This document shows, piece by piece, positions 45,035 through 61,921 of a DNA stretch of 64,000 nucleotides (its first letter is position 1; each line of letters opens with the position of its first letter). This DNA comes from a phage. The stretch is from assembly GCA_020619395.1 (NCBI GenBank), contig GCA_020619395.1_4860.1. One strand, given 5' to 3'. A model generated the notes under the pieces. The model had not been told where the DNA came from. It ran no database searches and saw only the letters and a list, made by a program, of their open reading frames with translations. The position numbers and the translations under genes are program-made.

Positions 45035-45313
45035 CTAGCTGATACGTTCCTTCCGAATAAATGTTCGAGAACGGTATCGTACCTGGACAATACGCGAGCG
45101 AGTCAAGACGGTAATCTTCTTACCGTTAGGTTTACGTGCTTTCGCAATGTACGCTTGCGAGGTACGGGCACTTTCAACACCTAAGTCGATTGGCCCTACT
45201 CCGCTTATCACAATCTCGTCAGGCGATAATGACAAGCCGTTATCGTGATTAATCAACGCCACGACAAGCGCTTTCGACGAGAGTGTTAGGTCGGGCTGAT
45301 AGCGGTCTGCCAT
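45035..45313 (-). CDS. Hypothetical protein (92 aa)
   Basis: ATG 45313 with GGAGG 6 nt upstream, immediately after a terminator; tracked 45349 start lies inside the hairpin. Confidence 0.45.
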   Translation of the reverse strand: MADRYQPDLTLSSKALVVALINHDNGLSLSPDEIVISGVGPIDLGVESARTSQAYIAKARKPNGKKITVLTRSRIVQVRYRSRTFIRKERIS

Positions 45314-45326
45314 TAACGCCTCCAGA

Positions 45327-45370
45327 AACAAAAAAAAATAAGCTACCACACATATGATCGTGTGGTAGCC
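45327..45370 (-). terminator. Rho-independent terminator
   Basis: Minus-strand GCTACCACAC..GTGTGGTAGC 10-bp stem followed by TTATTTTTTTTTG. Confidence 0.75.
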
Positions 45371-45383
45371 TACTCGTACGGTG

Positions 45384-45779
45384 TTAGTGCAGTGTAGCGC
45401 TGTGCACTACAGTTAACCCGCGACGTCCGATTTCATCCGCGATGGATTGCAACAGCTTATCGTAACCCACCTTTACAAATTCAGGTAAGCCGCGGTCAAC
45501 CATCTCCATCTCGGTGATTTCTTCACGGAAAACTTGACAACAGCCTTCTAAATAACGTTTAGCTTCTGTCACGTCATCGACATACCGCGCATAACTCAGG
45601 GCGATCGCGTAACCTTCTGCAATAAACGCATACTTCATGAAGACTTCAGGGTCGAGTTCTTCAACTGCCACGTCTAGACGTGAAGCGGTCTGACGTACAG
45701 AGTTACGTAATGATTCAGAAAACAGTGTAGTCGTAACCATATCCTGATTAGGAACGGTTTTAGGCATAATCAATTTCAC
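45384..45779 (-). CDS. Hypothetical protein (131 aa)
   Basis: GTG start with AAGGAG about 9 nt upstream. Confidence 0.55.
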   Translation of the reverse strand: MKLIMPKTVPNQDMVTTTLFSESLRNSVRQTASRLDVAVEELDPEVFMKYAFIAEGYAIALSYARYVDDVTEAKRYLEGCCQVFREEITEMEMVDRGLPEFVKVGYDKLLQSIADEIGRRGLTVVHSATLH

Positions 45780-45790
45780 GAGGACTCTCC

Positions 45791-46174
45791 TTACGATAAC
45801 TCGCCCATGTAAATTACTTCATAACCGAACCACTCACCGATTTCAATAAGGTAAGAAACTAGCAAGTGGCGATGACAGAATTTCCCCGGTGGGCAATAGC
45901 ACATTAGTACGACCTCGCCCTGGCGGAGAATCTCTATCAACTTATCAGTGTCTTCATCAAACAACCGACTAAGTTTCTGCAGGTAGCGTTTGGTATACGC
46001 AGCTTCTGCGTCGGGGCCTTTGTCAGACTTCTTGTAGTCCATCAGAAAGTCCCAGTCAGGTGCCAAATATTTCAGCCCCGACTTAACCGTTATATCCAGC
46101 TTTGGCAAATTCCGTTTTTCAGCTATCCGCCACTTCGCCAGTTGGAGCGTCCACAGCTTTACTTGCTTTGGCAT
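45791..46174 (-). CDS. Hypothetical protein with CYCPPGKFCHRH motif (127 aa)
   Basis: Start set to ATG 46174 (MPKQVKLW); Cys/His cluster near C-terminus; overlaps 3' end of upstream gene by 56 nt. Confidence 0.45.
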   Translation of the reverse strand: MPKQVKLWTLQLAKWRIAEKRNLPKLDITVKSGLKYLAPDWDFLMDYKKSDKGPDAEAAYTKRYLQKLSRLFDEDTDKLIEILRQGEVVLMCYCPPGKFCHRHLLVSYLIEIGEWFGYEVIYMGELS

Positions 46175-47126
46175 TTTTCGCTCTCTCTTTTTCTTTCTCC
46201 TGAAGCGCTTTAAAATGCGGTGCATATTCGCACCACTCTTCTGCTGTAAATGACGTGATAAACAGTCTTTCGGTATCTTCAGTTACCGTAAAGGTTGTGT
46301 GATTTCTTTTCGGGTCCTTAAAGTTAGCAAAAGTCGGTACGTCCAAACCCATAGCAGAAATAGCACCACCAAGAGCAGAGCACCATACCCGTCTGTAAGC
46401 ATCGTTGATTTTAATCTCCCATCCCACAGACGGTGTAATACCAAGACTACGATAATTCTGCGACTTTGCCGACGGATGGGCATAAACGATGAGCATGTTA
46501 TTCTCACGGTCTATCGCGAATTCGTAGTTGTTGTAGTTACTGACCTGCACCAATCTACGAATGTCTTCCGGCAACTCCTGCCACATTTCCAGTTTCTCTT
46601 TATCCCACGCAGGTGTTAGAAGCGGTGGAACGCGGCCGGCATGATCTTGGAAATACATCAGTTCGCTATAAAGGTTCTTTAAGCGAGCGTACTCGTCTAA
46701 TGTCCAATCTCCCAGCTCTAGACTATTCTCCAACGCATCTAGCTTATTCCAGCCAACAACTGCATAGGCGTGGTGCTGTTTGCGTGTAATGTCGCACATC
46801 AGTTTAGCGAGACCGTTAACAACATTGCCTTGCTGAACCAGAGGCGACCAGCCGTTAGCGTAGCCGGCGCTAACGACAGGCGGAAAGTTCTCTTCCCCGA
46901 GCACCGCCCATGTAACACGATCGGTTTGTGCGTGGTATCTGTCCATTAACCGTTCAACAATGGCCACACTACAAAGAATTTCCATGAAGTTCGCGTTACC
47001 TCCATTCCACATGGAGAAATATGCAGGACGGACATGTCGCGCTTCATTGGCCGGTGCTTTGCACAACAGCTGATACATTATCCAGGTGGAATCCAACCCT
47101 GCTGAAAACGAAACGAGCTTCGTCAT
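46119..47126 (-). CDS. PP-loop superfamily ATP pyrophosphatase-like enzyme (335 aa)
   Basis: N-terminal SFSAGLDST resembles the SGGxDS PP-loop (QueC / PAPS-reductase-like families); GAGG RBS. Confidence 0.55.
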   Translation of the reverse strand: MTKLVSFSAGLDSTWIMYQLLCKAPANEARHVRPAYFSMWNGGNANFMEILCSVAIVERLMDRYHAQTDRVTWAVLGEENFPPVVSAGYANGWSPLVQQGNVVNGLAKLMCDITRKQHHAYAVVGWNKLDALENSLELGDWTLDEYARLKNLYSELMYFQDHAGRVPPLLTPAWDKEKLEMWQELPEDIRRLVQVSNYNNYEFAIDRENNMLIVYAHPSAKSQNYRSLGITPSVGWEIKINDAYRRVWCSALGGAISAMGLDVPTFANFKDPKRNHTTFTVTEDTERLFITSFTAEEWCEYAPHFKALQEKEKERAKNAKASKAVDAPTGEVADS

Positions 47127-47134
47127 CCTTTACC

Positions 47135-47467
47135 TCACTTTTGTTTCTGTTTTTCTTCACGCATCAACTTAGCGTTCAGGTCGACCATGTAACCCGGTTT
47201 TTCCATCACCTGCACTTCTTCCCAGTTGCTTCCCACCGTCATTTTGAGTGTTCCTTGACGTACCGCGATTTCTTTTGCAGTGTCACGGCAGACCTCTAAC
47301 GCTTCGTCCAAATCGTTAAAGGTTGTCTTCTGTGGTCCGTTAAAGGTTTTAGCGCATTCCAGGAATACACGTTCGTAAACATCCTGGTCGAGTAAGAGTG
47401 GTTTGTCCGCAGCGTGGGCAACCATAGGCGCAACGAGTGCGCCTAACAGAACTAAAACTTTCTTCAT
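47135..47467 (-). CDS. Secreted/periplasmic small protein (110 aa)
   Basis: Start set to ATG 47467: MKKVLVLLGALVAPMVAHA signal peptide with AHA-A cleavage-like site. Confidence 0.55.
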   Translation of the reverse strand: MKKVLVLLGALVAPMVAHAADKPLLLDQDVYERVFLECAKTFNGPQKTTFNDLDEALEVCRDTAKEIAVRQGTLKMTVGSNWEEVQVMEKPGYMVDLNAKLMREEKQKQK

Positions 47468-47557
47468 TGTTTCACCGTGCGTATAAGTTGATAACGTAGG
47501 GTTAAAATTAAATCCATGTAACCTAGGGTCAATAGCGCACATGCGGCGCTATTAGCA

Positions 47558-49318
47558 CTATGCTTTCTCTGTCCAAGCGTGACCACGCAGCGTTTCACCA
47601 CGTATGTCGTATTGCTTATATTTCGAAGAGTCGTAAGACGCAGGTAAGAAGATCTGATGAACAATATCCGCCAGTCGACGAGCACCAAGGTTCTCTACAG
47701 CATTGGCTTCCATTGTTTTCTCAGCGATGAACGTATAGGTGTCCATGTCGTACTGCGTTTCCACCCCTTCGGTTTTCAACAACTTAATCATGCCGTGGAA
47801 CTCACTGTTATCCAACTTACAGATAGCAATCAGTGCCTCGGTATCCAGCGAAGACATTTTCGCCCTTAACGGAAAACGTCCCTGGAGTTCTGCCATGAGT
47901 TTAGAAACAGGCGCTTGAGCAAACGACCCAGCAGCGACAAAAAGCACATTGGTTGTGTCAACGCCATGATAAATACCTCCTTCAACCATTTTCAACAAGC
48001 TACGCTGCACACCACTACGGGATACACGTGCAGAGTGTTGCGTGTCAACCTCGATAAGTTTGTCAAACTCATCCAGGAACACCACCGCAAAGTTCTCAAC
48101 GAAATCATGCCCATTACAGTTGGGTAGTTTCTTGAGGTCTTTGCGGCTGACTGTTTCTTTTTCTGGTGCAACTGTTTCAGGTATCTCGTAATGCCAGAGT
48201 CGTTCATCAGCGTATTTGGTAAATTCTGGAGAACCTTCGAACACGTCATCCCACCAACGACACCACTTCTCAGGATCTTCCAAACGAGACAACATGCGAA
48301 TAGTAAACGCTGCAGCGTCGATCGGGAACCAATTAATGCCCACCGGCTCGGCGTCCTCGTCGTCGCCGTTAAACGTGTCGAACAAATCGTAGAAATCTGA
48401 GCCATCGGCACATGAGAGCGGAAGGTTATTCGACATCAACTTTTGACCAGCATCAACGTATAAGTCAATCTGTTCGCCTAAAGCCATCAGCGACATAAAC
48501 TCACCCATATACCCAATCGTGCCCGGTATATCGCCACCCATTAACTCATCGACTTGACTTTCAAGTTCTTCACTATTTAACAGTTCAGAAATTGACGAGA
48601 CACCGAGCAGACTCCTTGCGATTTCCGACATCTTATCTATCCATTCCTGCACAGTACGACCACCGAGCGCAACAGAATAAATATCGAAGTCTTCGTAGGT
48701 TAAATTATGTTGACGGCAATAGCCAACCATAAACGCGCGAAGACAATAGATGTCTTGGTATTCTTCGTACAACTCCTTCGGATCGAGTATACCCTGACGC
48801 CGTAATAGTTCGGTGTGTTCACGTTTAGCTTGATACCGCAGCTGGCGCTCAGCGGCGCGCTCGTCTAGTTCACGTTCAACTTCCTTGCGGGATTCACGCT
48901 CCCACTCTTCTCGAGTAAGACGATTACCGTCTACTTCCGACTCGACACGACGTTTGGTACGCAGTTCGATATACCAGTCGGGCAATTCGACAGAACGCGC
49001 TAAGTCGGCTAAGTCCTTGCCGATTGATGTAACTTCCCGGCCTACGTAGCCCGATTCTGTAAACGCGGTCATGTCGAGTTCCAGTACGGGTAAACCGAAT
49101 TTAGTTTTCAGTACCCGCATCAACGCCGTTTTACCCGTGCCTGTTGGACCTTCTATTAAAAGGTTCTGTTTGTGGACCGACATACGGTCCACTACGTTGA
49201 GTTTGTTGGCACGATATCGATTACGTAGCGCAATCGCCAGCATTTTCTTTGCCTGCGTTTGTCCGTATACGTAACGGTCGAATAGCGCCACTATCTCAAT
49301 CGGCGTAAGGTTTTCCAT
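47558..49318 (-). CDS. HslU/ClpX-family AAA+ ATPase (586 aa)
   Basis: N-terminus TPIEIVALFDRYVYGQTQAKKMLAIALRNRYR..LIEGPTGTGKTALMR..FTESGYVGREV and C-terminus VFLDEFDK..GVQRSLLKMVEG..ENLGARRL parallel E. coli HslU block by block (from memory). Confidence 0.75.
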   Translation of the reverse strand: MENLTPIEIVALFDRYVYGQTQAKKMLAIALRNRYRANKLNVVDRMSVHKQNLLIEGPTGTGKTALMRVLKTKFGLPVLELDMTAFTESGYVGREVTSIGKDLADLARSVELPDWYIELRTKRRVESEVDGNRLTREEWERESRKEVERELDERAAERQLRYQAKREHTELLRRQGILDPKELYEEYQDIYCLRAFMVGYCRQHNLTYEDFDIYSVALGGRTVQEWIDKMSEIARSLLGVSSISELLNSEELESQVDELMGGDIPGTIGYMGEFMSLMALGEQIDLYVDAGQKLMSNNLPLSCADGSDFYDLFDTFNGDDEDAEPVGINWFPIDAAAFTIRMLSRLEDPEKWCRWWDDVFEGSPEFTKYADERLWHYEIPETVAPEKETVSRKDLKKLPNCNGHDFVENFAVVFLDEFDKLIEVDTQHSARVSRSGVQRSLLKMVEGGIYHGVDTTNVLFVAAGSFAQAPVSKLMAELQGRFPLRAKMSSLDTEALIAICKLDNSEFHGMIKLLKTEGVETQYDMDTYTFIAEKTMEANAVENLGARRLADIVHQIFLPASYDSSKYKQYDIRGETLRGHAWTEKA

Positions 49319-49527
49319 TATTTTTCCTCTTTCAATATCTCAGCAACCGCTTTGCGACACGCGTTCACCGCGTCAGGATAAGTGCTATTGTTCGGGTCTA
49401 CTCGATCAATACACATTCTGAACGTACTGGTTGCGGTCTCGCGACGTTCTGCAGTGCGGGTACTGGTACTGACGGCGATATAAATACAGAACAACACAGC
49501 AGCTGCAATCGGCCAACGTAAGTTCAT
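49318..49527 (-). CDS. Small membrane-anchored protein (69 aa)
   Basis: Hydrophobic N-terminus WPIAAAVLFCIYIAVS; start and stop overlap neighbours by TAATG-type coupling. Confidence 0.45.
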   Translation of the reverse strand: MNLRWPIAAAVLFCIYIAVSTSTRTAERRETATSTFRMCIDRVDPNNSTYPDAVNACRKAVAEILKEEK

Positions 49528-50225
49528 CAGTAATCCCCCGTTGCCCCTATCGCAGTCGCTACTTTACTGGCAACCTCGTCAACCGGAAGCACCACCTCGT
49601 CTTTCTTGCTCACAATCTCTGGCACTTCTTTGACATGTTCAACGGTCACGTCAAATTTCCGAGTATAACCAACAAGTAACTTTGCCATTTCTGCACGACT
49701 AACGAACTGTTGTTCTTCTGACAGATGCAACGACGTATCAAGTAGTCCGGAATGCATGAAGTTTTCAATGAGTTGGTCTTCTTCTGCTTTGAAGTCGTAC
49801 CGCTCGTTCGGTGCAGCCACAAATGCATAACCGAAATACTTCCCCTCTTCCTGTTCAGGGCGTAACGATTTAACTAACTCCTCAGCGTGTTCACAGAAGT
49901 CCGCCAAAGTATAATCGTCAAGTGTGGCAACTGCGGTTTCTGTTACAATTTCACCGCTGTCGAGTTCGGTGAGGTGCATCACCCACAGGTGCCATGGGCG
50001 CGGTTGGTCGAACAGCCCACCGACTAACATGTCTGTGGCGATAGCACGAATACGTGGACTTGCTGTAAAGTGAAAACCGCGGCCCGCGTACGGGCCGAGA
50101 CGGCGAATGGAGCTGCCAATAAAGGTGATGCGGTTCAGCGCGTTTTCAGCGATGGTGTGCGCTGTACGCTCTGTAGCAGCTTTTGGGTTATACTTTTTGT
50201 TACGGGGTTTCTTTTGCTTAGCCAT
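49527..50225 (-). CDS. Hypothetical protein (232 aa)
   Basis: ORF directly upstream of the HslU-like gene; no HslV-like motifs. Confidence 0.55.
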   Translation of the reverse strand: MAKQKKPRNKKYNPKAATERTAHTIAENALNRITFIGSSIRRLGPYAGRGFHFTASPRIRAIATDMLVGGLFDQPRPWHLWVMHLTELDSGEIVTETAVATLDDYTLADFCEHAEELVKSLRPEQEEGKYFGYAFVAAPNERYDFKAEEDQLIENFMHSGLLDTSLHLSEEQQFVSRAEMAKLLVGYTRKFDVTVEHVKEVPEIVSKKDEVVLPVDEVASKVATAIGATGDY

Positions 50226-50695
50226 TACTTAAAAACCTTTTTGCAAACTGTGTGGAATACTTTACGAATTTCACGAAGGGATTGTTCGGTGTGCAGATAA
50301 CGATACGTTATCTTCCACGCGTTATACGTGTTTTTCAGGGTGATTTCGCTGAGGTCATAAACGAAATCATCATCAGGGTACATGAGTCTCGCCATGGATA
50401 AATCCCACAATGGTGGAATATCCGCTTTCATTAACTCAGCGACAAGCTCATGTGCTTTGTGTTCAAAGCCGATGCCAAGAACGAACACCACATGAAATTC
50501 CCCCGGTGTGTTCTTTTTAGAATATGGTCCGTGTCCATGACACGACCAGATTGTCGTGGCACCAGGATAACTACAAATGACCTCACACGCATCCCGTACG
50601 CCTTTCTCAACCCAACCGTTTACGAGCGCCTTAGACGTTCGTAGTTTAAACCGACCCAGAACATCCAGGTCCACGCCACCGTATAAAACTGGCAT
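50225..50695 (-). CDS. Hypothetical protein (156 aa)
   Basis: AAGGAG RBS; no assignable domain. Confidence 0.55.
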   Translation of the reverse strand: MPVLYGGVDLDVLGRFKLRTSKALVNGWVEKGVRDACEVICSYPGATTIWSCHGHGPYSKKNTPGEFHVVFVLGIGFEHKAHELVAELMKADIPPLWDLSMARLMYPDDDFVYDLSEITLKNTYNAWKITYRYLHTEQSLREIRKVFHTVCKKVFK

Positions 50696-50723
50696 CTTTA
50701 ATTCTCCTTAAGGGTGTCTTCAT

Positions 50724-51176
50724 TTAATGGTTATGTTCTGTAAAAATTGCGAGTGCGAGCCAGTGCTCCATCACTCTTTCCATCACATCCGGGTCAGGTC
50801 GATAGTTGAGTCTAAACGTCCAGCTTGGATAACAGAGGTTCGCGTTGCCTTCTTGACGCAGCCAAGTAAAGTTTAACTGAAAACGTTTCCCGTATTCGTG
50901 CGGCTGCCATCCTTCTAATAAATGATTAATGTCTTTAAGACCCGCCTCGGTTGCCACAAATGTTAAGCTGTGGTGTCTACGTGTACGAAGCTTGTCTCCG
51001 TCTTTGCGAACTTCTCCCGTGAATGCCCAAACGGTTGCGATATTCGGCCATTCGCTAAATGCCCTAATGATTGCACGCGTTTTAACATCGACTGGTTTTT
51101 CAGCATCCAGCGCCCGGATTGTGCGCTGCTTGTACGCGGCCAATTCCGCATCATTGACGACTGAACATTGAAACAT
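50724..51176 (-). CDS. Hypothetical protein (150 aa)
   Basis: ORF with G-rich RBS. Confidence 0.5.
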   Translation of the reverse strand: MFQCSVVNDAELAAYKQRTIRALDAEKPVDVKTRAIIRAFSEWPNIATVWAFTGEVRKDGDKLRTRRHHSLTFVATEAGLKDINHLLEGWQPHEYGKRFQLNFTWLRQEGNANLCYPSWTFRLNYRPDPDVMERVMEHWLALAIFTEHNH

Positions 51177-51196
51177 GGTATACCCCCCAAAGGGTT

Positions 51197-51237
51197 AAAA
51201 ATAAAAAGAACCCTACCTAACCGAAGTTAGGTAGGGG
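51197..51237 (-). terminator. Rho-independent terminator
   Basis: Minus-strand CCCTACCTAAC-TTCG-GTTAGGTAGGG followed by TTCTTTTTATTTTT. Confidence 0.75.
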
Positions 51238-58264: not shown

Positions 58265-58888
58265 CTAACCTGCCAGAATACGTTCAACGATACGGGCGGC
58301 CTGTAACGCCATATCGTCGTCTGCTGTAATTCGCATCAGTGGAAACTTATCACCACCGTCTGTAGTGATGTGGAACGCAAAACGGTAATGGTCGCGTAAG
58401 GCGTCCCAATCGGTCTGTGAGCGCAGATACTTCGCTGTCAGTACCTCATCATCCCAGTGCTTACCTTGTGCTTCTACGCGCTTCTTAAAGCGTTCTGTGG
58501 CGGTTTCGTAAGATACATCGGTTGCCACGTAAAGCTTTGGTGCGTTAATGTGGTCTAATACTCGCGAACGGAAAACTTCCCCTTTACCATCTACGCCCTG
58601 GTAGACAATGGTCGATTGACAAAAACGGTCAAAAATAACGACATCGTGCTCTGGTACAACGAAATCCATTGTATATTGGAAATCCAGACACATCGCTTTG
58701 GCAATACGTTCATTAGAGGCGTGCTGGATAACCAGAGAGCGTGCACTAATACCGGCTTCAGTGGTATTCGTCGGGTGATTGACGATGGTGACATTAACGC
58801 CAGCGGAGCGCAACATCGCTTGAATCATTTTCGCGAGTGTTGATTTGCCAGAAAAGTCCGGACCATCCAGCGCCACTGAGTTTAACAT
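58265..58888 (-). CDS. tmk: Thymidylate kinase-like dNMP kinase (207 aa)
   Basis: P-loop ALDGPDFSGKST and DRFCQSTIVYQG (DRY..AYQG-like) typical of dTMP kinases. ATG 58888 with GGGGAAG upstream (tracked GTG 58930 lacks SD). Confidence 0.65.
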   Translation of the reverse strand: MLNSVALDGPDFSGKSTLAKMIQAMLRSAGVNVTIVNHPTNTTEAGISARSLVIQHASNERIAKAMCLDFQYTMDFVVPEHDVVIFDRFCQSTIVYQGVDGKGEVFRSRVLDHINAPKLYVATDVSYETATERFKKRVEAQGKHWDDEVLTAKYLRSQTDWDALRDHYRFAFHITTDGGDKFPLMRITADDDMALQAARIVERILAG

Positions 58889-58948
58889 TTTATTCTTCCC
58901 CAAAAGTTTAATTAATTGTAGTGGTGTCACAATATAGCGAGCATACGT

Positions 58949-58986
58949 AAAGAAAAAAAATAATAGGCACTCCGAAGAGTGCCTAG
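58949..58986 (-). terminator. Rho-independent terminator
   Basis: Minus-strand TAGGCACTC-TTCG-GAGTGCCTA followed by TTATTTTTTTTCTTT. Confidence 0.75.
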
Positions 58987-58991
58987 CTTAC

Positions 58992-59756
58992 TTAGAAGTC
59001 AACTCGCGTTTTCGATTTTTCCTCAATGCCTTCTGGCCATGAATCAATCCACGCCTGCAGCACCGCAGCTACACGGGGCTCAGCTAAGAACTTCTTCAAC
59101 AACGGCCATGACTGGAGAGGATATAAAAACTTCAACGAAACTTGACCTGGGTCAAACTCATTCCGAACAGTAAACGGTAAACGGAAATCATAAGTTACCT
59201 GAACAACTGGCTCACTGAAAGGCTGGCCAAAGAAACTCAGGTTCCGAGTTACCGAAAGGACGTGCCCTGCAAACTCACCCCGAATCAGTTCGCTGCTCTT
59301 AACGGAGACAAACGAATAACCGTCGGTGTTCGGCTTACGCAGTCGTTCGGTTTTCATCACGTTAGCGAAGAAGTTATCAATCACTTCTTCGACCAATACG
59401 TAATTCAGACACTCCCCACGCAACGCCTCGAGATTGTGTTGAGACCATGCATCCCATAGCGCCGGTTTTCTGGCAATCAGCTTAAAGAACAGACGTGCAG
59501 AAACCGCCCGGAGTTCGCCGAGCATTTTCTTGGTCAGTTCAGTTTGATCCCAACTAGGGGCACAAAAGATTGTCCTTCCGCCGGAACCTACTAAGGTGGC
59601 ACCGGTCACGCTGTTAATCAGTTTGTGACTTAACATGTGCGGAATACCTTTTGGTGTCAGGTCATTTTCGTTATACGTGAATACGTAGCGATACTGACCA
59701 TCTGCGGTAGGTACGGAAAGCCATTCTTTGGTTGCTGCTTTATTGAGTTTTGACAT
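58992..59756 (-). CDS. Hypothetical protein (254 aa)
   Basis: ORF following conserved upstream motif. Confidence 0.55.
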   Translation of the reverse strand: MSKLNKAATKEWLSVPTADGQYRYVFTYNENDLTPKGIPHMLSHKLINSVTGATLVGSGGRTIFCAPSWDQTELTKKMLGELRAVSARLFFKLIARKPALWDAWSQHNLEALRGECLNYVLVEEVIDNFFANVMKTERLRKPNTDGYSFVSVKSSELIRGEFAGHVLSVTRNLSFFGQPFSEPVVQVTYDFRLPFTVRNEFDPGQVSLKFLYPLQSWPLLKKFLAEPRVAAVLQAWIDSWPEGIEEKSKTRVDF

Positions 59757-59855
59757 TTTGTTTACTCGCTTTTAAGTTTAAGTTGGTGAGTTTTAACCGA
59801 CTCACAACGGCTTCTAGCATATGCTAAGGATGAAACGTAATTTTTGCACGTCTCC

Positions 59856-59879
59856 CTAAGATAACATCTATCCAAAAAA
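59856..59879 (-). promoter_or_regulatory. Conserved upstream motif
   Basis: Plus-strand CTAAGATAACATCTATCCAAAAAA, with TGAAACGTAATTT shared with the 44101-44140 copy. Confidence 0.35.
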
Positions 59880-59880
59880 G

Positions 59881-59913
59881 AATAGAGTCGACCCACTCCC
59901 GAAGGAGTGGGTA
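59881..59913 (-). terminator. Rho-independent terminator
   Basis: Minus-strand ACCCACTCC-TTCG-GGAGTGGGT followed by CGACTCTATTCTTTTTTGG. Confidence 0.6.
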
Positions 59914-59917
59914 TAAC

Positions 59918-60514
59918 TCACTGATGATCAACTGTCGGTTCAGACCACTCGGGAACTGTCGGAAGTTTAATATCAGCTGCGTATTCTGAAGGTACTGCAA
60001 GTGTGGTAAATCCACGACATGCTAAATAGTGCTGCATTCGTGCTGCCTGGTTTGGTGTGTCAGTAATCACCAAATGGGTCTTACGCATAAGTGCGAGTAC
60101 CGCCTGTCCTTCTTGCGGTGTAGGCGTACGTGGATGCTTACTGATAATGCTCATTAACCAGTCACGTGCAATACCACCTACATTACAACTGGCCTCACGC
60201 AAATCAACCACACCTTCTCCCTCACCGACCACCTGTTTGGTGGAGTTAGGATAAAAGCGATACGGTGCACGACGACGCTTACGACGTACTTCTGAAATAG
60301 CACGCCCGAGTATCATCTGTGCATGTTTAACGCTACAGCCTTCCACCGGTCTACGCATGTTCGTTACTAAACAGGCAATCTCTAGTACCTTACCGATTTG
60401 ATAACGACGCTTAAAGCCATGACGACTTATGTCTACGTATTCTGGAAGATTGCCGTTTTTATTGATGTTTGCAACCGTAATCAAAAACAGCGAATCGAGA
60501 ATCATCTCAGACAT
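59918..60514 (-). CDS. Hypothetical protein (198 aa)
   Basis: ATG 60514 with AAGGGGAG 6 nt upstream. Confidence 0.55.
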   Translation of the reverse strand: MSEMILDSLFLITVANINKNGNLPEYVDISRHGFKRRYQIGKVLEIACLVTNMRRPVEGCSVKHAQMILGRAISEVRRKRRRAPYRFYPNSTKQVVGEGEGVVDLREASCNVGGIARDWLMSIISKHPRTPTPQEGQAVLALMRKTHLVITDTPNQAARMQHYLACRGFTTLAVPSEYAADIKLPTVPEWSEPTVDHQ

Positions 60515-60526
60515 CACAGTCTCCCC

Positions 60527-60898
60527 TTAAAACCCCGCAACGACTGCAGCCATAAAGTCATGCACGACTTTACGTTGTTCTGCAAGCGGGTAGCCAAATT
60601 TAGTAATGTCGTGCATCCACCGAACCCGGTGAGTCCGACCATCGTGACTGAATGTGGAGCGCAGTACCAGGAAATAATCCGCACTGACTCGAAAATGTAA
60701 CGAGCAGCTGCCATGTTTGGCTCGCACGGTCAACTGAATACGCTTTACACCGCCGCCTAAATACTTAGCGTCGATGTCGACCTGGTCAACCTCCGACACA
60801 GCCCGTAAGGCTTGCGCGACGTCTTCCAGGTCCCCGTTCTTGCTCACATTAGCGCCATGGAGCGCTGCGGTACAGAGTTGAAGCTCTCGATAGAACAT
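60527..60898 (-). CDS. Hypothetical protein (123 aa)
   Basis: AGGAGA RBS; 55-nt overlap with upstream gene. Confidence 0.5.
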   Translation of the reverse strand: MFYRELQLCTAALHGANVSKNGDLEDVAQALRAVSEVDQVDIDAKYLGGGVKRIQLTVRAKHGSCSLHFRVSADYFLVLRSTFSHDGRTHRVRWMHDITKFGYPLAEQRKVVHDFMAAVVAGF

Positions 60899-61452
60899 CC
60901 TTCTAGTCTCCTGTCCCTCCCATAGTTCAAGGGATTTTTATAATACCAATCTTCATGCACAGGAGTCACGCGGATATACCGGCTGTAAAACAACAAGTAT
61001 TTGTAGAAGGTATCAATACTGACGTCTTTGTCTACCGATAGAAAGTAGTTTAAAGACGGGTCGTCTGGGAACGACACAAAGATACCGGTGAAGTACGCAT
61101 CGGCATAGGGGCCATTAAACGGCGTCACTTCACACCTCAGGCAAGGTAAGCCAACCTGAAACGCGTTCTGTCCTGTCCAGTAAATTCCACGTGTGGTTGC
61201 ATCGCGTGTTTTCCCATCGGGACGACAAACAACCCCTGCTATAAAACTGGACCGTTGACTTGGGTCAGCCGCATTTAAGAACTGGGCTATTCTGTCTACT
61301 GAAAAATATTTTAACGTGCCGGGCGGTAATTGCCAGAACTGTCCCATCGCACGTACCACCTTCCAACCAGGGCGATTTCTTGCCCCAAAACGCTTTACAC
61401 AAAAAGTATATCGCGAGCCAGTCTGATGTGGCACGCTGCGGACAGCTACCAT
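60844..61452 (-). CDS. Hypothetical protein (202 aa)
   Basis: ORF coupled to upstream GNAT gene. Confidence 0.55.
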   Translation of the reverse strand: MVAVRSVPHQTGSRYTFCVKRFGARNRPGWKVVRAMGQFWQLPPGTLKYFSVDRIAQFLNAADPSQRSSFIAGVVCRPDGKTRDATTRGIYWTGQNAFQVGLPCLRCEVTPFNGPYADAYFTGIFVSFPDDPSLNYFLSVDKDVSIDTFYKYLLFYSRYIRVTPVHEDWYYKNPLNYGRDRRLEGCSIESFNSVPQRSMALM

Positions 61453-61453
61453 G

Positions 61454-61921
61454 TTAAAGCTCCTTTACCATATCCTGGTATTCAGTTCGGAATCCGAAAC
61501 GTTCATAAAACGCAATAGCACGGTCGTTATTACCGAGCACGTTAAGCTGCATCCATGCGCAGCCTTTTGATTTGCCATAGTTCTCTACGGCTTCGATCAG
61601 TTCATGACCAACGCCTTGTGAACGAACCGATTCATCTACAAAAAAGTTATATACCCAGAGGAAACGTTGTCCCTTTTTGGTGTAGCCAAAGGTGATGAAG
61701 CCAACAGCCACATCACGGTCATCAACGGCGCAAGCGCACAGCGTACCTTCACCCCAAACCTCCTCCAGTTTTGAGATTTGATTAAACCCTTCACGACCGT
61801 TTAAGTCGGCAAGTTTTATTTTCTGATCGTCGTATAACTTGTTGTGTAGTCCTAACAAGTCGGCGTAATATTTCTTTCCATACGGAGAGTTGGGCTTGGT
61901 GACAAAAACAATTTTCATCAT
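61454..61921 (-). CDS. GNAT-family N-acetyltransferase (155 aa)
   Basis: FFVDESVRSQGVGHELIEAVENYGKSKGCAWMQLNV..AIAFYERFGF matches GNAT motifs A/B. Confidence 0.75.
   Translation of the reverse strand: MMKIVFVTKPNSPYGKKYYADLLGLHNKLYDDQKIKLADLNGREGFNQISKLEEVWGEGTLCACAVDDRDVAVGFITFGYTKKGQRFLWVYNFFVDESVRSQGVGHELIEAVENYGKSKGCAWMQLNVLGNNDRAIAFYERFGFRTEYQDMVKEL

What the first reader, a model, noticed from the sequence alone, without database searches (positions are those of the whole stretch)
47558..49318. Phage-encoded HslU-like AAA+ unfoldase with no HslV protease partner
The 586-aa protein parallels bacterial HslU (ClpY) at both ends (GQ..AK..AIALRNR, GPTGTGKT, ..ENLGARRL) with a long divergent intermediate domain, but neighbouring genes show no HslV-like sequence. 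The phage may hijack host HslV or another protease, or use the ATPase as a stand-alone remodeller.
Basis: partly seen in the sequence, partly recalled or inferred. Interest (0 to 1): 0.6.

Follow-up and report, generated by a model that had tools for sequence, protein, structure and literature searches.

The report
Tail-less HslU-type unfoldase of a jumbo phage
A Salmonella jumbo phage carries a real, apparently active relative of the bacterial protein-unfolding motor HslU that has lost the tail HslU uses to dock onto its protease HslV and has gained a large domain found nowhere else; the phage genome is not protease-less, because its closest sequenced relative encodes an HslV-family peptidase far outside this window.

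Summary
Window 47558-49318 (-) encodes a 586-aa AAA+ protein whose two ends match HslU by sequence (PDB HslU E=8.6e-49) and by fold (all top 50 PDB matches are HslU/ClpY). All ATPase and pore motifs are intact. It is not MoxR and not ClpX.

- There is no HslV-like gene in the 64-kb window. The closest complete genome (Salmonella phage 1252, 97-98% identical) has an HslV-family peptidase (phrog_1040, E=2e-37) at 194552-195043.
- In related genera a second, divergent HslV-family gene starts about 1.6-3 kb upstream of the HslU-like gene.
- The whole phage clade (0/34) lacks the ...[FY]IL C-terminal tail that ends 85/86 cellular HslU sequences and docks into HslV, so hijacking host HslV is unlikely.
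- The ~290-aa insert is an orphan all-helical domain with no relatives by fold or sequence outside this family.
- The gene is accessory. It is under purifying selection (dN/dS ~0.11), yet it was deleted at least twice independently in Seoulvirus, including in SPN3US itself.

Most likely it is a substrate-selective unfoldase that is independent of host HslV. It either works alone or feeds the phage's own peptidase through a non-canonical contact. It is a new variant of a known kind, of moderate interest.

The parts
47558..49318 (-). HslU-like AAA+ unfoldase gene (586 aa, family phrog_4339)
   Evidence: ORF; phrog_4339 E=1.8e-148 over the full length; HslU is the best hit by sequence and fold; 100% identical to XAN61431.1 of Salmonella phage 1252
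48992..49318 (-). N-terminal part of the AAA+ large domain (residues 1-109), with Walker A GPTGTGKT (49127-49150) and the pore-1 loop GYVG (49040-49051)
   Evidence: Aligned to HslU residues 1-109; G57, T59, G60, G62, K63, T64, G90 and G93 are invariant across 46 sequences; motifs present in 32/32 full-length clade members
48119..48991 (-). Expanded insert at the position of the HslU I domain (residues 110-400): an all-helical orphan domain, presumed to select substrates
47561..48118 (-). C-terminal AAA+ part (residues 401-586): Walker B VVFLDEFDK (48059-48085), Arg-finger motif ELQGR (47876-47890), sensor-2 GARR (47675-47686)
   Evidence: Aligned to HslU residues 242-414; D416, E417, R481, R547 and R548 are invariant; 32/32 clade members keep each motif
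47561..47590 (-). C-terminus ...LRGHAWTEKA, which lacks the HslV-docking tail (cellular HslU ends ...D-L-S-R-[FY]-I-L)
   Evidence: Alignment; 0/34 phage-clade sequences against 85/86 cellular homologues end in [FYWA]IL; pLDDT below 50 for residues 583-586
47159..49114 (-). Segment missing from the EC001, JN03, Lh1B and SPLA1a type of Seoulvirus (1,956 bp, in frame, 9-nt microhomology encoding LMR); they keep only a 75-codon remnant
49318..50225 (-). Two upstream genes whose stop codons overlap the next start codon: a 69-aa protein (phrog_28359) at 49318-49527 and a 232-aa protein (phrog_6965) at 49527-50225. phrog_6965 is syntenic with the HslU-like gene in Machina (gp127), Kwan (gp142) and CR5 (CR5_123)
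   Evidence: One-base overlaps; TAATG junction with GAGG upstream
50225..51176 (-). Two tandem phrog_7413 paralogues in the syntenic slot where Machina has gp125 (HslV-family type 2) and gp126; the linked peptidase gene is absent here
47135..47542 (-). Small downstream gene (phrog_10627); its sequence starts MKKVLVLLGALVAPMVAHA from residue 26, which looks like a signal peptide by eye. It was co-deleted with the HslU-like gene in EC001-type phages and retained in SPN3US
45336..51236 (-). Probable transcription unit of nine genes bounded by two strong terminator-like hairpins (51211-51236, 11 bp; 45336-45375, 17 bp)
   Evidence: This is an inference, because the total number of terminator-like sites in the region is not above the shuffled expectation

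Best explanation
The gene encodes a working HslU-lineage AAA+ unfoldase of a phage-specific clade (phrog_4339). By analogy with HslU it should form a hexameric ring that grips polypeptides with its GYVG pore loops and pulls them through the pore using ATP (inferred, not tested). Three features separate it from cellular HslU. First, it has lost the C-terminal tail that HslU inserts between HslV subunits to dock and activate the peptidase, so it should not couple to host HslV in the canonical way. Second, the ~130-aa I domain is replaced by a ~290-aa all-helical domain found only in this family. That domain sits on the substrate-entry side, evolves about five times faster than the motor, and is still under purifying selection, so it most likely chooses the substrates. 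Third, it is an accessory gene of Seoul-like nucleus-forming jumbo phages: it is maintained by selection where present but has been deleted repeatedly. The clade seems to have started as part of a phage-private module with a proteasome-like (HslV-family) peptidase gene about 1.6-3 kb upstream. That module survives in Derbicusvirus, part of Machinavirus and two metagenomic contigs. In this phage the linked peptidase gene is gone and only an unlinked HslV-family peptidase remains. I therefore think that here it acts mainly as a stand-alone, substrate-selective unfoldase or remodeller, with hand-over to the phage's own peptidase as the main alternative. Shown: family, motifs, missing tail, orphan insert, selection, losses and linkage patterns. 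Inferred: hexamer, unfolding activity, role of the insert and choice of partner.
Against: Nothing here is biochemical. Hexamer formation, ATPase activity and unfolding are inferred from conserved motifs and a monomer model. The closest complete genome does encode an HslV-family peptidase with intact catalytic residues, and the conserved type-2 linkage in sister lineages argues that the clade can work with a peptidase even without the tail. RAY gp116 is not in this clade (28% core identity to our protein, 36% to Salmonella HslU), so its nuclear location transfers only weakly. Absence of HslV-like genes from the Kwan and RAY types rests on tblastn, not on profile scans of their whole genomes.
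Confidence: 0.6

Rival explanations
1. It is the unfoldase half of a phage-private two-component protease. The hexamer docks, through a contact that does not use the canonical C-terminal tail, onto rings of the phage's own HslV-family (PPH-like) peptidase, which is encoded about 100-140 kb away in this phage, and feeds it unfolded substrates.
For: The closest genome encodes a phrog_1040 peptidase with Thr1, Asp, Lys and GSG retained. In Derbicusvirus, the Machina subgroup and contigs L020 and L022, a second HslV-family gene starts about 1.6-3 kb upstream of the HslU-like gene in a conserved gene order, and it is never seen without the HslU-like gene (19/19 records). Among the cultured phrog_4339 lineages examined, only Wellingtonvirus lacks a detectable HslV-family gene.
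Against: The docking tail is absent in all 34 clade members, including those with the linked peptidase. The type-1 peptidase is present in hundreds of small siphoviruses and in SPN3US-type phages that lack the unfoldase, so it does not need it. The linked type-2 gene is absent from this phage. The two genes lie in different parts of the genome. In Fuchs et al. [quoted passage not shown]
Confidence: 0.3
2. The phage ATPase hijacks the host HslV peptidase, or another host protease such as ClpP.
For: The AAA+ core is 33% identical to Salmonella HslU. The host encodes hslVU.
Against: There is no C-terminal ...[FY]IL tail. From established HslUV structural work (Sousa 2000; Ramachandran 2002; my knowledge), this tail is the element that binds and activates HslV. 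Only 12 residues separate sensor-1 (AAGSF) from the Arg-finger motif, as in HslU, so there is no room for a ClpX-type IGF loop that would dock ClpP (my knowledge of ClpX). If the protein is nuclear like RAY gp116 (an inference that transfers only weakly), host proteases may not reach it, because the phage nucleus is described as excluding host defence factors (PMC10299810; PMC9365700).
Confidence: 0.05
3. It is a decaying, functionless relic on its way to being lost.
For: The gene was deleted at least twice in the genus. SPN3US itself, the type phage of the species and an isolated phage, lacks it.
Against: dN/dS is 0.11-0.12 between three intact alleles, with dS of 0.10-0.16. All catalytic motifs are intact. 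There are 135 distinct intact sequences in the 90% cluster; the exact window sequence was seen on 10 contigs and the other listed members on 1-5 each, mostly about 240 kb long.
Confidence: 0.03

Closest known systems
Bacterial HslU (ClpY), the ATPase of the HslUV protease (TIGR00390; PDB 1g4a, 1do0, 5ji3)
   Same: Same AAA+ fold and domain order. It has Walker A and B, the GYVG pore-1 loop, the Arg finger and sensor-2, and an inserted domain at the same point between the pore loop and Walker B.
   Different: It scores 209.6 bits, below the equivalog cut-off of 362, with 33% core identity. It lacks the C-terminal HslV-docking tail and has a 4-residue deletion after VEGG. The insert is about 290 aa, unrelated in sequence and fold to the HslU I domain. 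There is no adjacent hslV gene.
Erwinia phage RAY gp116 ('HslUV-like protease', an accessory gene that localises in the phage nucleus; Prichard et al. 2023, PMC10299810)
   Same: It is an HslU-like protein of a nucleus-forming jumbo phage, also tail-less, with a large insert and an accessory distribution.
   Different: It is a different lineage: 28% core identity to our protein and 36% to Salmonella HslU. In an NJ tree it groups with the cellular sequences. Its pore loop is GYYG and it has a long pore-2 insertion. Its localisation therefore cannot simply be transferred.
phrog_4339 / 'putative heat shock protein' of Erwinia, Cronobacter and Salmonella jumbo phages (Machina gp129, Kwan gp148, CR5_127, SPAsTU)
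   Same: This is the same family (E=1.8e-148). Identity is 42-72% and the neighbours are syntenic: phrog_6965 upstream, and the 335-aa and DUF488 genes downstream.
   Different: Machina-subgroup and CR5-type phages keep an HslV-family peptidase gene starting about 2.3-3 kb upstream, and this phage does not. CR5-type proteins have a ~420-430-aa insert and a long charged C-terminal extension.
ClpX acting without ClpP (for example in remodelling the MuA transpososome; my knowledge)
   Same: It is the sister AAA+ family and the second-best match (127.9 bits; PDB E=1.6e-26). It shows that this kind of motor can act as a stand-alone remodeller.
   Different: There is no N-terminal zinc-binding domain, since matches to ClpX begin at ClpX residues ~60-68, and no IGF-loop insertion.
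[quoted passage not shown] 2021, PMC8665760) / phrog_1040 'peptidase HslV family'
   Same: The candidate phage partner (163 aa in phage 1252) is a small Ntn-type peptidase with Thr1 that is widespread in tailed phages.
   Different: No unfoldase partner has been described for PPH. The peptidase is not in this window. I did not test whether phrog_1040 and PPH are the same family; that is an inference from size and distribution.

Membership tests
HslU (TIGR00390 equivalog) | Score at or above the curated equivalog cut-off (362.45 bits) | tested here: not met
   209.6 bits in two stretches
HslU (TIGR00390 equivalog) | HslU/ClpX-type AAA+ fold with Walker A and B, GYVG pore-1 loop, Arg finger and sensor-2 | tested here: met
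HslU (TIGR00390 equivalog) | I domain inserted between the pore-1 loop and Walker B | tested here: inconclusive
   There is an insert at the same position, but it is about 290 aa against about 130 and shows no sequence or fold similarity to the HslU I domain
HslU (TIGR00390 equivalog) | C-terminal tail ...D-L-S-R-[FY]-I-L that docks into and activates HslV | tested here: not met
   0/34 phage-clade sequences against 85/86 cellular homologues
HslU (TIGR00390 equivalog) | Encoded next to hslV (hslVU operon) | tested here: not met
   No HslV-like ORF in the 64-kb window. The host Salmonella locus shows the canonical hslV-hslU pair
HslU (TIGR00390 equivalog) | Forms hexamers and activates HslV proteolysis | not testable with these tools
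   Needs biochemistry or multimer modelling
ClpX | Curated score, N-terminal zinc-binding domain and IGF loops for ClpP | tested here: not met
   127.9 bits against a cut-off of 359, and the match starts at ClpX residue ~60. Only 12 residues lie between sensor-1 and the Arg finger, as in HslU
   bpMoxR scores 18.4 against 27 and AAA_5 scores 18.9 against 22, both P-loop-only matches of about 40 residues
phrog_4339 (jumbo-phage HslU-like clade) | Full-length profile match | tested here: met
   E=1.8e-148, residues 1-580 on profile positions 2-529 of 552
HslV / proteasome-like Ntn peptidase (for the phage 1252 protein at 194552-195043, outside the window) | Family profile match plus N-terminal Thr nucleophile, Asp17 and Lys33 equivalents and the GSG motif | tested here: met
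   phrog_1040 E=2e-37; in-house HslV profile E=3e-5; residues confirmed in the alignment. Pfam Proteasome scores only 13.3 bits against a cut-off of 22.4, so it is a divergent member

The most novel reading that the evidence does not exclude
Nucleus-forming jumbo phages carry a private, proteasome-like ATP-dependent protease. It would consist of a tail-less HslU-derived unfoldase with a lineage-specific substrate-selecting cap, working with phage HslV-family (PPH-type) peptidase rings through a docking mode unlike any known HslUV contact. It would be used for a conditional task such as destroying host defence or regulatory proteins, or sustaining the persistent (carrier-state) infections in which Seoul-like phages are found in Salmonella isolates.
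Probability: 0.25. Interest if true: 0.75.

Novelty: new variant of a known kind. Interest (0 to 1): 0.5.

Why it matters
HslU is a textbook unfoldase whose only known job is to feed HslV. This is a virus-borne branch that has dropped the docking tail and swapped in a private substrate-entry domain. In sister phages it still travels with a divergent proteasome-like peptidase. That gives two testable leads. One is an AAA+ motor that has been re-targeted by a virus. The other is the first candidate unfoldase partner for the phage proteasome homologues, for which the literature checked here names none. Natural deletion alleles within one genus (SPN3US against phage 1252 or SPLA3) provide closely related phages that differ at this locus and could be compared for phenotype. 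It also corrects the record: the gene is annotated variously as hypothetical, heat shock protein, DnaA or HslU, and the 'HslV without HslU' statement for pSal-SNUABM-04 is an annotation artefact.

Tried and rejected
- **Single-sequence tblastn with E. coli HslV.** At E<=1 against all phages it found nothing in these jumbo phages. This would have wrongly confirmed 'no HslV'; only a profile search found the gene.
- **Phage records carrying true hslVU.** The records with 52-97% matches to HslV (Listeria phage LM, Enterococcus phage Efs, Staphylococcus phage SA 1306, S.Kent and similar) are unverified, unannotated or bacterial contigs, so I treated them as probable bacterial DNA and used some only as HslV references.
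- **The ~150-aa 'head maturation protease' genes** next to the HslU-like gene in Machina, Kwan, SPN3US and SPLA3. I tested them as possible HslV-like partners. They are not HslV-like (phrog_7478) and are absent from the window and from phage 1252.
- **ClpP.** phmmer with E. coli ClpP (sequence recalled from memory) against the whole phage genome gave no hit.
- **Nuclear localisation of RAY gp116.** It cannot be transferred with confidence, because gp116 is a different lineage.
- **My first tail regex** was too strict (29/86). I recounted with the [FYWA]IL$ rule and got 85/86.
- **My first deletion size** (1,948 bp, as written in the notebook) was a miscount. The correct figure is 1,956 bp.
- **Literature searches** on 'phage nucleus + AAA+ + unfoldase' and 'SPN3US + heat shock protein' returned nothing useful.
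- **Sigma-70 promoter and terminator scan.** It is not above chance overall. Only the two long hairpins are mentioned, and only as an inference.
Full report
**What is there**

Window 47558-49318 (minus strand) is a 586-codon ORF. It is 100% identical to a 'hypothetical protein' of Salmonella phage 1252 (PP695294.1, 243 kb). The window is not that genome but a close relative. It is 97-98% identical and collinear with record positions 39273-106358, except that a 2.9-kb segment of the record is missing from the window. The genus is Seoulvirus (taxonomy lines). Seoulvirus belongs to the nucleus-forming Chimalliviridae, and SPN3US gp244 is a chimallin homologue (PMC9365700 and bioRxiv 10.1101/2024.12.31.630880).

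**Family**

Every library places the protein closest to HslU.
- NCBIfam hslU scores 209.6 bits against 127.9 for ClpX.
- PDB HslU gives E=8.6e-49 in two stretches, residues 1-109 and 402-568, against 1.6e-26 for ClpX.
- With an AlphaFold model of mean pLDDT 85.4, all 50 best Foldseek matches in the PDB are HslU/ClpY.
- The protein matches phrog_4339 (unknown function) over its full length at E=1.8e-148.

A search of 5.8 billion proteins gives a discrete clade of 34 sequences, P0001-P0034; the 32 full-length ones are 553-742 aa. The named members come from jumbo phages or Salmonella isolate assemblies and the unnamed ones from contigs of up to 184 kb. The clade is followed by ordinary cellular HslU of 440-498 aa.

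**Anatomy**

An alignment with host Salmonella HslU (locus) and other homologues shows that the catalytic parts are kept. These are Walker A GPTGTGKT, pore-1 loop GYVG, Walker B VVFLDEFDK, Arg-finger motif ELQGR and sensor-2 GARR. Each is present in 32/32 full-length clade members. Two things differ.

First, the spacing from GYxG to Walker B is 262-436 residues in the clade and 156-213 in cellular HslU. In this protein, residues ~110-400 form the insert.

Second, 85 of 86 cellular homologues end in [FYWA]-I-L (typically D-L-S-R-F/Y-I-L), and none of the 34 clade members does. This protein ends ...LRGHAWTEKA. From established HslUV work (Sousa 2000, Ramachandran 2002; my knowledge, both cited in PMC8665760), that tail inserts between HslV subunits and is what docks and activates the peptidase.

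**The insert**

- Modelled alone (pLDDT 81.5, pTM 0.73) it is all-helical.
- Foldseek against viral models finds only another member of the same family.
- phmmer of the insert against 1.84 billion representatives finds a single protein, P0019, also of the same family.
- It diverges faster than the motor: 64% against 72% identity to SPAsTU, about 32% against 50% to Machina-like proteins, and about 21% against 42% to Kwan-like proteins.
- Among 15 near-identical alleles, 47 of 56 variable positions lie in the insert.
- Its dN/dS is still only 0.14-0.16.

I infer that it is a functional domain that determines specificity, as the I domain does in HslU.

**Is there a protease partner?**

Within the window there is none. 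Two HslV profiles run with all filters off, and a ClpP query, find nothing. The neighbours match only PHROGs of unknown function plus a DUF488 protein.

At genome level the answer changes. A profile built from five HslV sequences picked out one ORF in phage 1252, at 194552-195043 (E=3e-5). It encodes 163 aa starting MTTIAF and matches phrog_1040 'peptidase HslV family' at E=2e-37. It retains Thr1, the ADGQ aspartate, a lysine aligned with Lys33 and the GSG motif. Pfam Proteasome is below threshold at 13.3 bits, and plain tblastn with E. coli HslV missed it. I call this the type-1 gene. It is present at 97-100% identity in every good-quality Seoulvirus record listed, so the window's phage almost certainly has it.

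It also occurs in 468 phage records, most of them ~42-kb Salmonella siphoviruses. None of those appears among the records with an HslU-like match in the listed rows. Type 1 therefore does not depend on this ATPase. It probably corresponds to the phage proteasome homologues (PPH) of Fuchs et al. 2021. [quoted passage not shown]

**A second, linked peptidase in sister lineages**

In Cronobacter phage CR5 a 'peptidase HslV family' gene (CR5_121, starting MTTVF...) begins about 2.8 kb upstream of the HslU-like gene. It is only 22% identical to type 1 but matches phrog_1040 at 1.6e-22. I call this type 2.

Searches with CR5_121 and with its Machina counterpart gp125 each find the same 19 records. 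These are Derbicusvirus (CR5, Derbicus, EarlPhillipIV, Phobos, pEa_SNUABM_38) and the Machina subgroup (Machina, Huxley, Parshik, pEa_SNUABM_6, _10, _42 and _43, and pSal-SNUABM-04). In every record the gene starts about 2.3-3 kb upstream of an HslU-like gene. Two metagenomic contigs, L020 and L022, have the same arrangement at 1.6-2.1 kb. This probably explains the published statement that pSal-SNUABM-04 has 'HslV at ORF 1 and 116 but no HslU'. Those two ORFs would be types 1 and 2, and its HslU-like gene is annotated 'putative DnaA'.

The gene order in Machina is gp123, gp124, gp125 (type 2), gp126, gp127 (phrog_6965), gp128, then the HslU-like gene. The window has homologues of gp123, gp124 and gp127, but between them it has two phrog_7413 paralogues and no peptidase gene.

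Type 2 is not detected in Seoulvirus, SPAsTU, Caitlin/ChrisDB, Kwan/Wellington or RAY-type phages. No HslV-like gene of any kind was detected in Kwan/Wellington or RAY-type phages by three tblastn queries. The pattern is a module that looks ancestral to the clade and has since been eroded. It is neither an obligate pair nor a true orphan.

**Dispensability and selection**

Across Seoulvirus records the locus has four states.

| Phages | State of the locus |
|---|---|
| SPLA3, MET_P1_082_240 | HslU-like gene, 161-aa phrog_7478 gene, small gene |
| Window, phage 1252 | HslU-like gene, small gene |
| SPN3US, ten good-quality SPFM records, Proteus phage 7 | ~1.75-kb deletion from about codon 13 to just past the stop codon, across an 8-nt microhomology; phrog_7478 gene left intact |
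| EC001, JN03, Lh1B, SPLA1a | In-frame 1,956-bp deletion (window 47159-49114) joining codon 68 to the last seven codons of the small downstream gene across a 9-nt microhomology; a 75-codon remnant remains |

The gene has therefore been lost at least twice independently, and SPN3US itself lacks it. The intact alleles are nevertheless under purifying selection, with dN/dS of 0.11-0.12 at dS of 0.10-0.16.

The 90%-identity cluster of the intact protein holds 135 members. Forty were read and 14 of those carry names; 13 of the 14 are from Salmonella enterica isolate assemblies of many serovars and one is from phage SPLA3. Most listed members sit on contigs of about 240 kb. The exact window sequence occurs on 10 contigs. 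This fits the report that Seoul-like phages persist in bacterial isolates. Whether the intact allele is enriched in such persistent phages could not be tested here.

**Expression context**

The gene's ATG overlaps the stop codon of the upstream 69-aa gene (TAATG) and is preceded by GAGG. The three genes upstream are chained in the same way. Two long terminator-like hairpins bracket a nine-gene block at 45336-51236. This last point is an inference only.

**Related experimental knowledge**

Erwinia phage RAY gp116 is an 'HslUV-like' accessory protein. [quoted passage not shown] I confirmed that gp116 is the RAY hit. It is a separate lineage, with 28% core identity to our protein and 36% to Salmonella HslU, a GYYG pore loop and a long pore-2 insertion. 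It too lacks the tail. At least two jumbo-phage lineages therefore carry tail-less HslU derivatives with large inserts.

**Verdict**

The protein is an HslU-type unfoldase without an adjacent HslV, but the genome is not peptidase-less, and hijacking host HslV is unlikely because the docking tail is gone.

The most likely mechanism is an ATP-driven, substrate-selective unfoldase whose specificity comes from the orphan insert. In this phage it acts alone (about 0.45) or with the phage's own HslV-family peptidase through a non-canonical contact (about 0.3). The confidence of 0.6 on the best explanation covers the broader claim that it is a host-HslV-independent, substrate-selective unfoldase, whichever of those two holds.

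It is a new variant of a known kind. The family is already annotated in related phages as 'putative heat shock protein' or 'HslU-like'. I did not find the missing tail, the orphan insert, the linked peptidase or the recurrent deletions described in the literature I could search.

Noticed in passing
Outside the window: Salmonella phage 1252 record PP695294.1 194552-195043 (locus L006 44552-45043): A 163-aa HslV-family (phrog_1040) peptidase gene with intact Thr1, Asp, Lys and GSG, annotated 'hypothetical'. A tRNA-Trp lies about 100 nt downstream (L006 45137-45212), and unannotated stretches of 1.2-1.8 kb lie close by on both sides of the gene cluster.
   Followed up: yes
L016 673-1176 (CR5_121); L014 1175-1702 (Machina gp125); L020 7930-8415; L022 7412-7897: A second, divergent HslV-family peptidase ('type 2', about 22% identical to type 1). 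It is found only in genomes that also carry the HslU-like gene and always starts about 1.6-3 kb upstream of it, in the conserved order peptidase, ~182-188-aa gene, phrog_6965 gene ... HslU-like gene.
   Followed up: yes
window 47159-49114; L012 4001-4228 (EC001); L017 2083-2172 (SPN3US): Two independent microhomology-mediated deletions (9 nt and 8 nt) removed the HslU-like gene in most sequenced Seoulvirus isolates. The slot also gains or loses a 161-aa phrog_7478 gene annotated 'head maturation protease', which looks like a truncated paralogue of the prohead protease (weak match to phrog_3014).
   Followed up: yes
window ~45106-45126 (junction); the ORF at 44208-45020 matches only positions 807-1070 of the tail-protein profile phrog_2871: Relative to phage 1252 the window lacks 2.9 kb (record 58655-61553). 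That removes part of one small gene, all of another, and the first ~2.1 kb of a 1005-aa gene whose EC001 homologue is annotated 'tail-associated protein'. This may be a real deletion, possibly a defective or host-range variant, or an assembly artefact.
   Followed up: partly
window 45791-46225 and 46119-47126 (both minus strand): A DUF488-N3a protein (Pfam E=6e-12) overlaps the end of a 335-aa protein (phrog_8825) whose N-terminus has an SFSAGLDS motif that resembles a PP-loop by eye. The pair stays downstream of the HslU-like gene in Machina (gp134, gp135). The DUF488 gene does the same in CR5 (CR5_129), L020, L022 and SPN3US, each time behind a gene of similar size (315-346 aa).
   Followed up: partly
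window 50225-50695 and 50724-51176 (minus strand): Two tandem paralogues of phrog_7413 (unknown function) occupy the syntenic slot that holds the type-2 peptidase and its neighbour in Machina.
   Followed up: partly
Protein cluster of the window gene (P0001, P0121-P0134): The 90%-identity cluster of the intact allele has 135 members. Of the 14 named members read, 13 come from Salmonella enterica isolate assemblies of many serovars, mostly on ~240-kb contigs. This fits the reported persistence of Seoul-like phages in bacterial cultures. Most plaque-isolated phages of the genus carry deletions. A link between the intact allele and persistence is untested.
   Followed up: partly
L020 5095-6480; L022 4755-6191: The metagenomic jumbo-phage contigs with CR5-type HslU-like genes also encode a Bcs1-like AAA protein (PF08740 BCS1_N plus AAA) about 3.5-5 kb upstream, so they carry a second AAA+ gene in the same neighbourhood.
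   Followed up: no
Public annotations of homologues: The same gene family is annotated as hypothetical protein, putative heat shock protein, putative DnaA protein, HslU or ATP-dependent protease. The published statement that pSal-SNUABM-04 has HslV but no HslU is an annotation artefact.
   Followed up: yes
'phages' collection records such as OR849163, OR847286, OR846616, OR844988, AFYI01000005: Several records labelled as phages that carry canonical hslVU are unverified, unannotated or plainly bacterial contigs, so they look like bacterial DNA and would give false 'phage HslUV' hits.
   Followed up: partly
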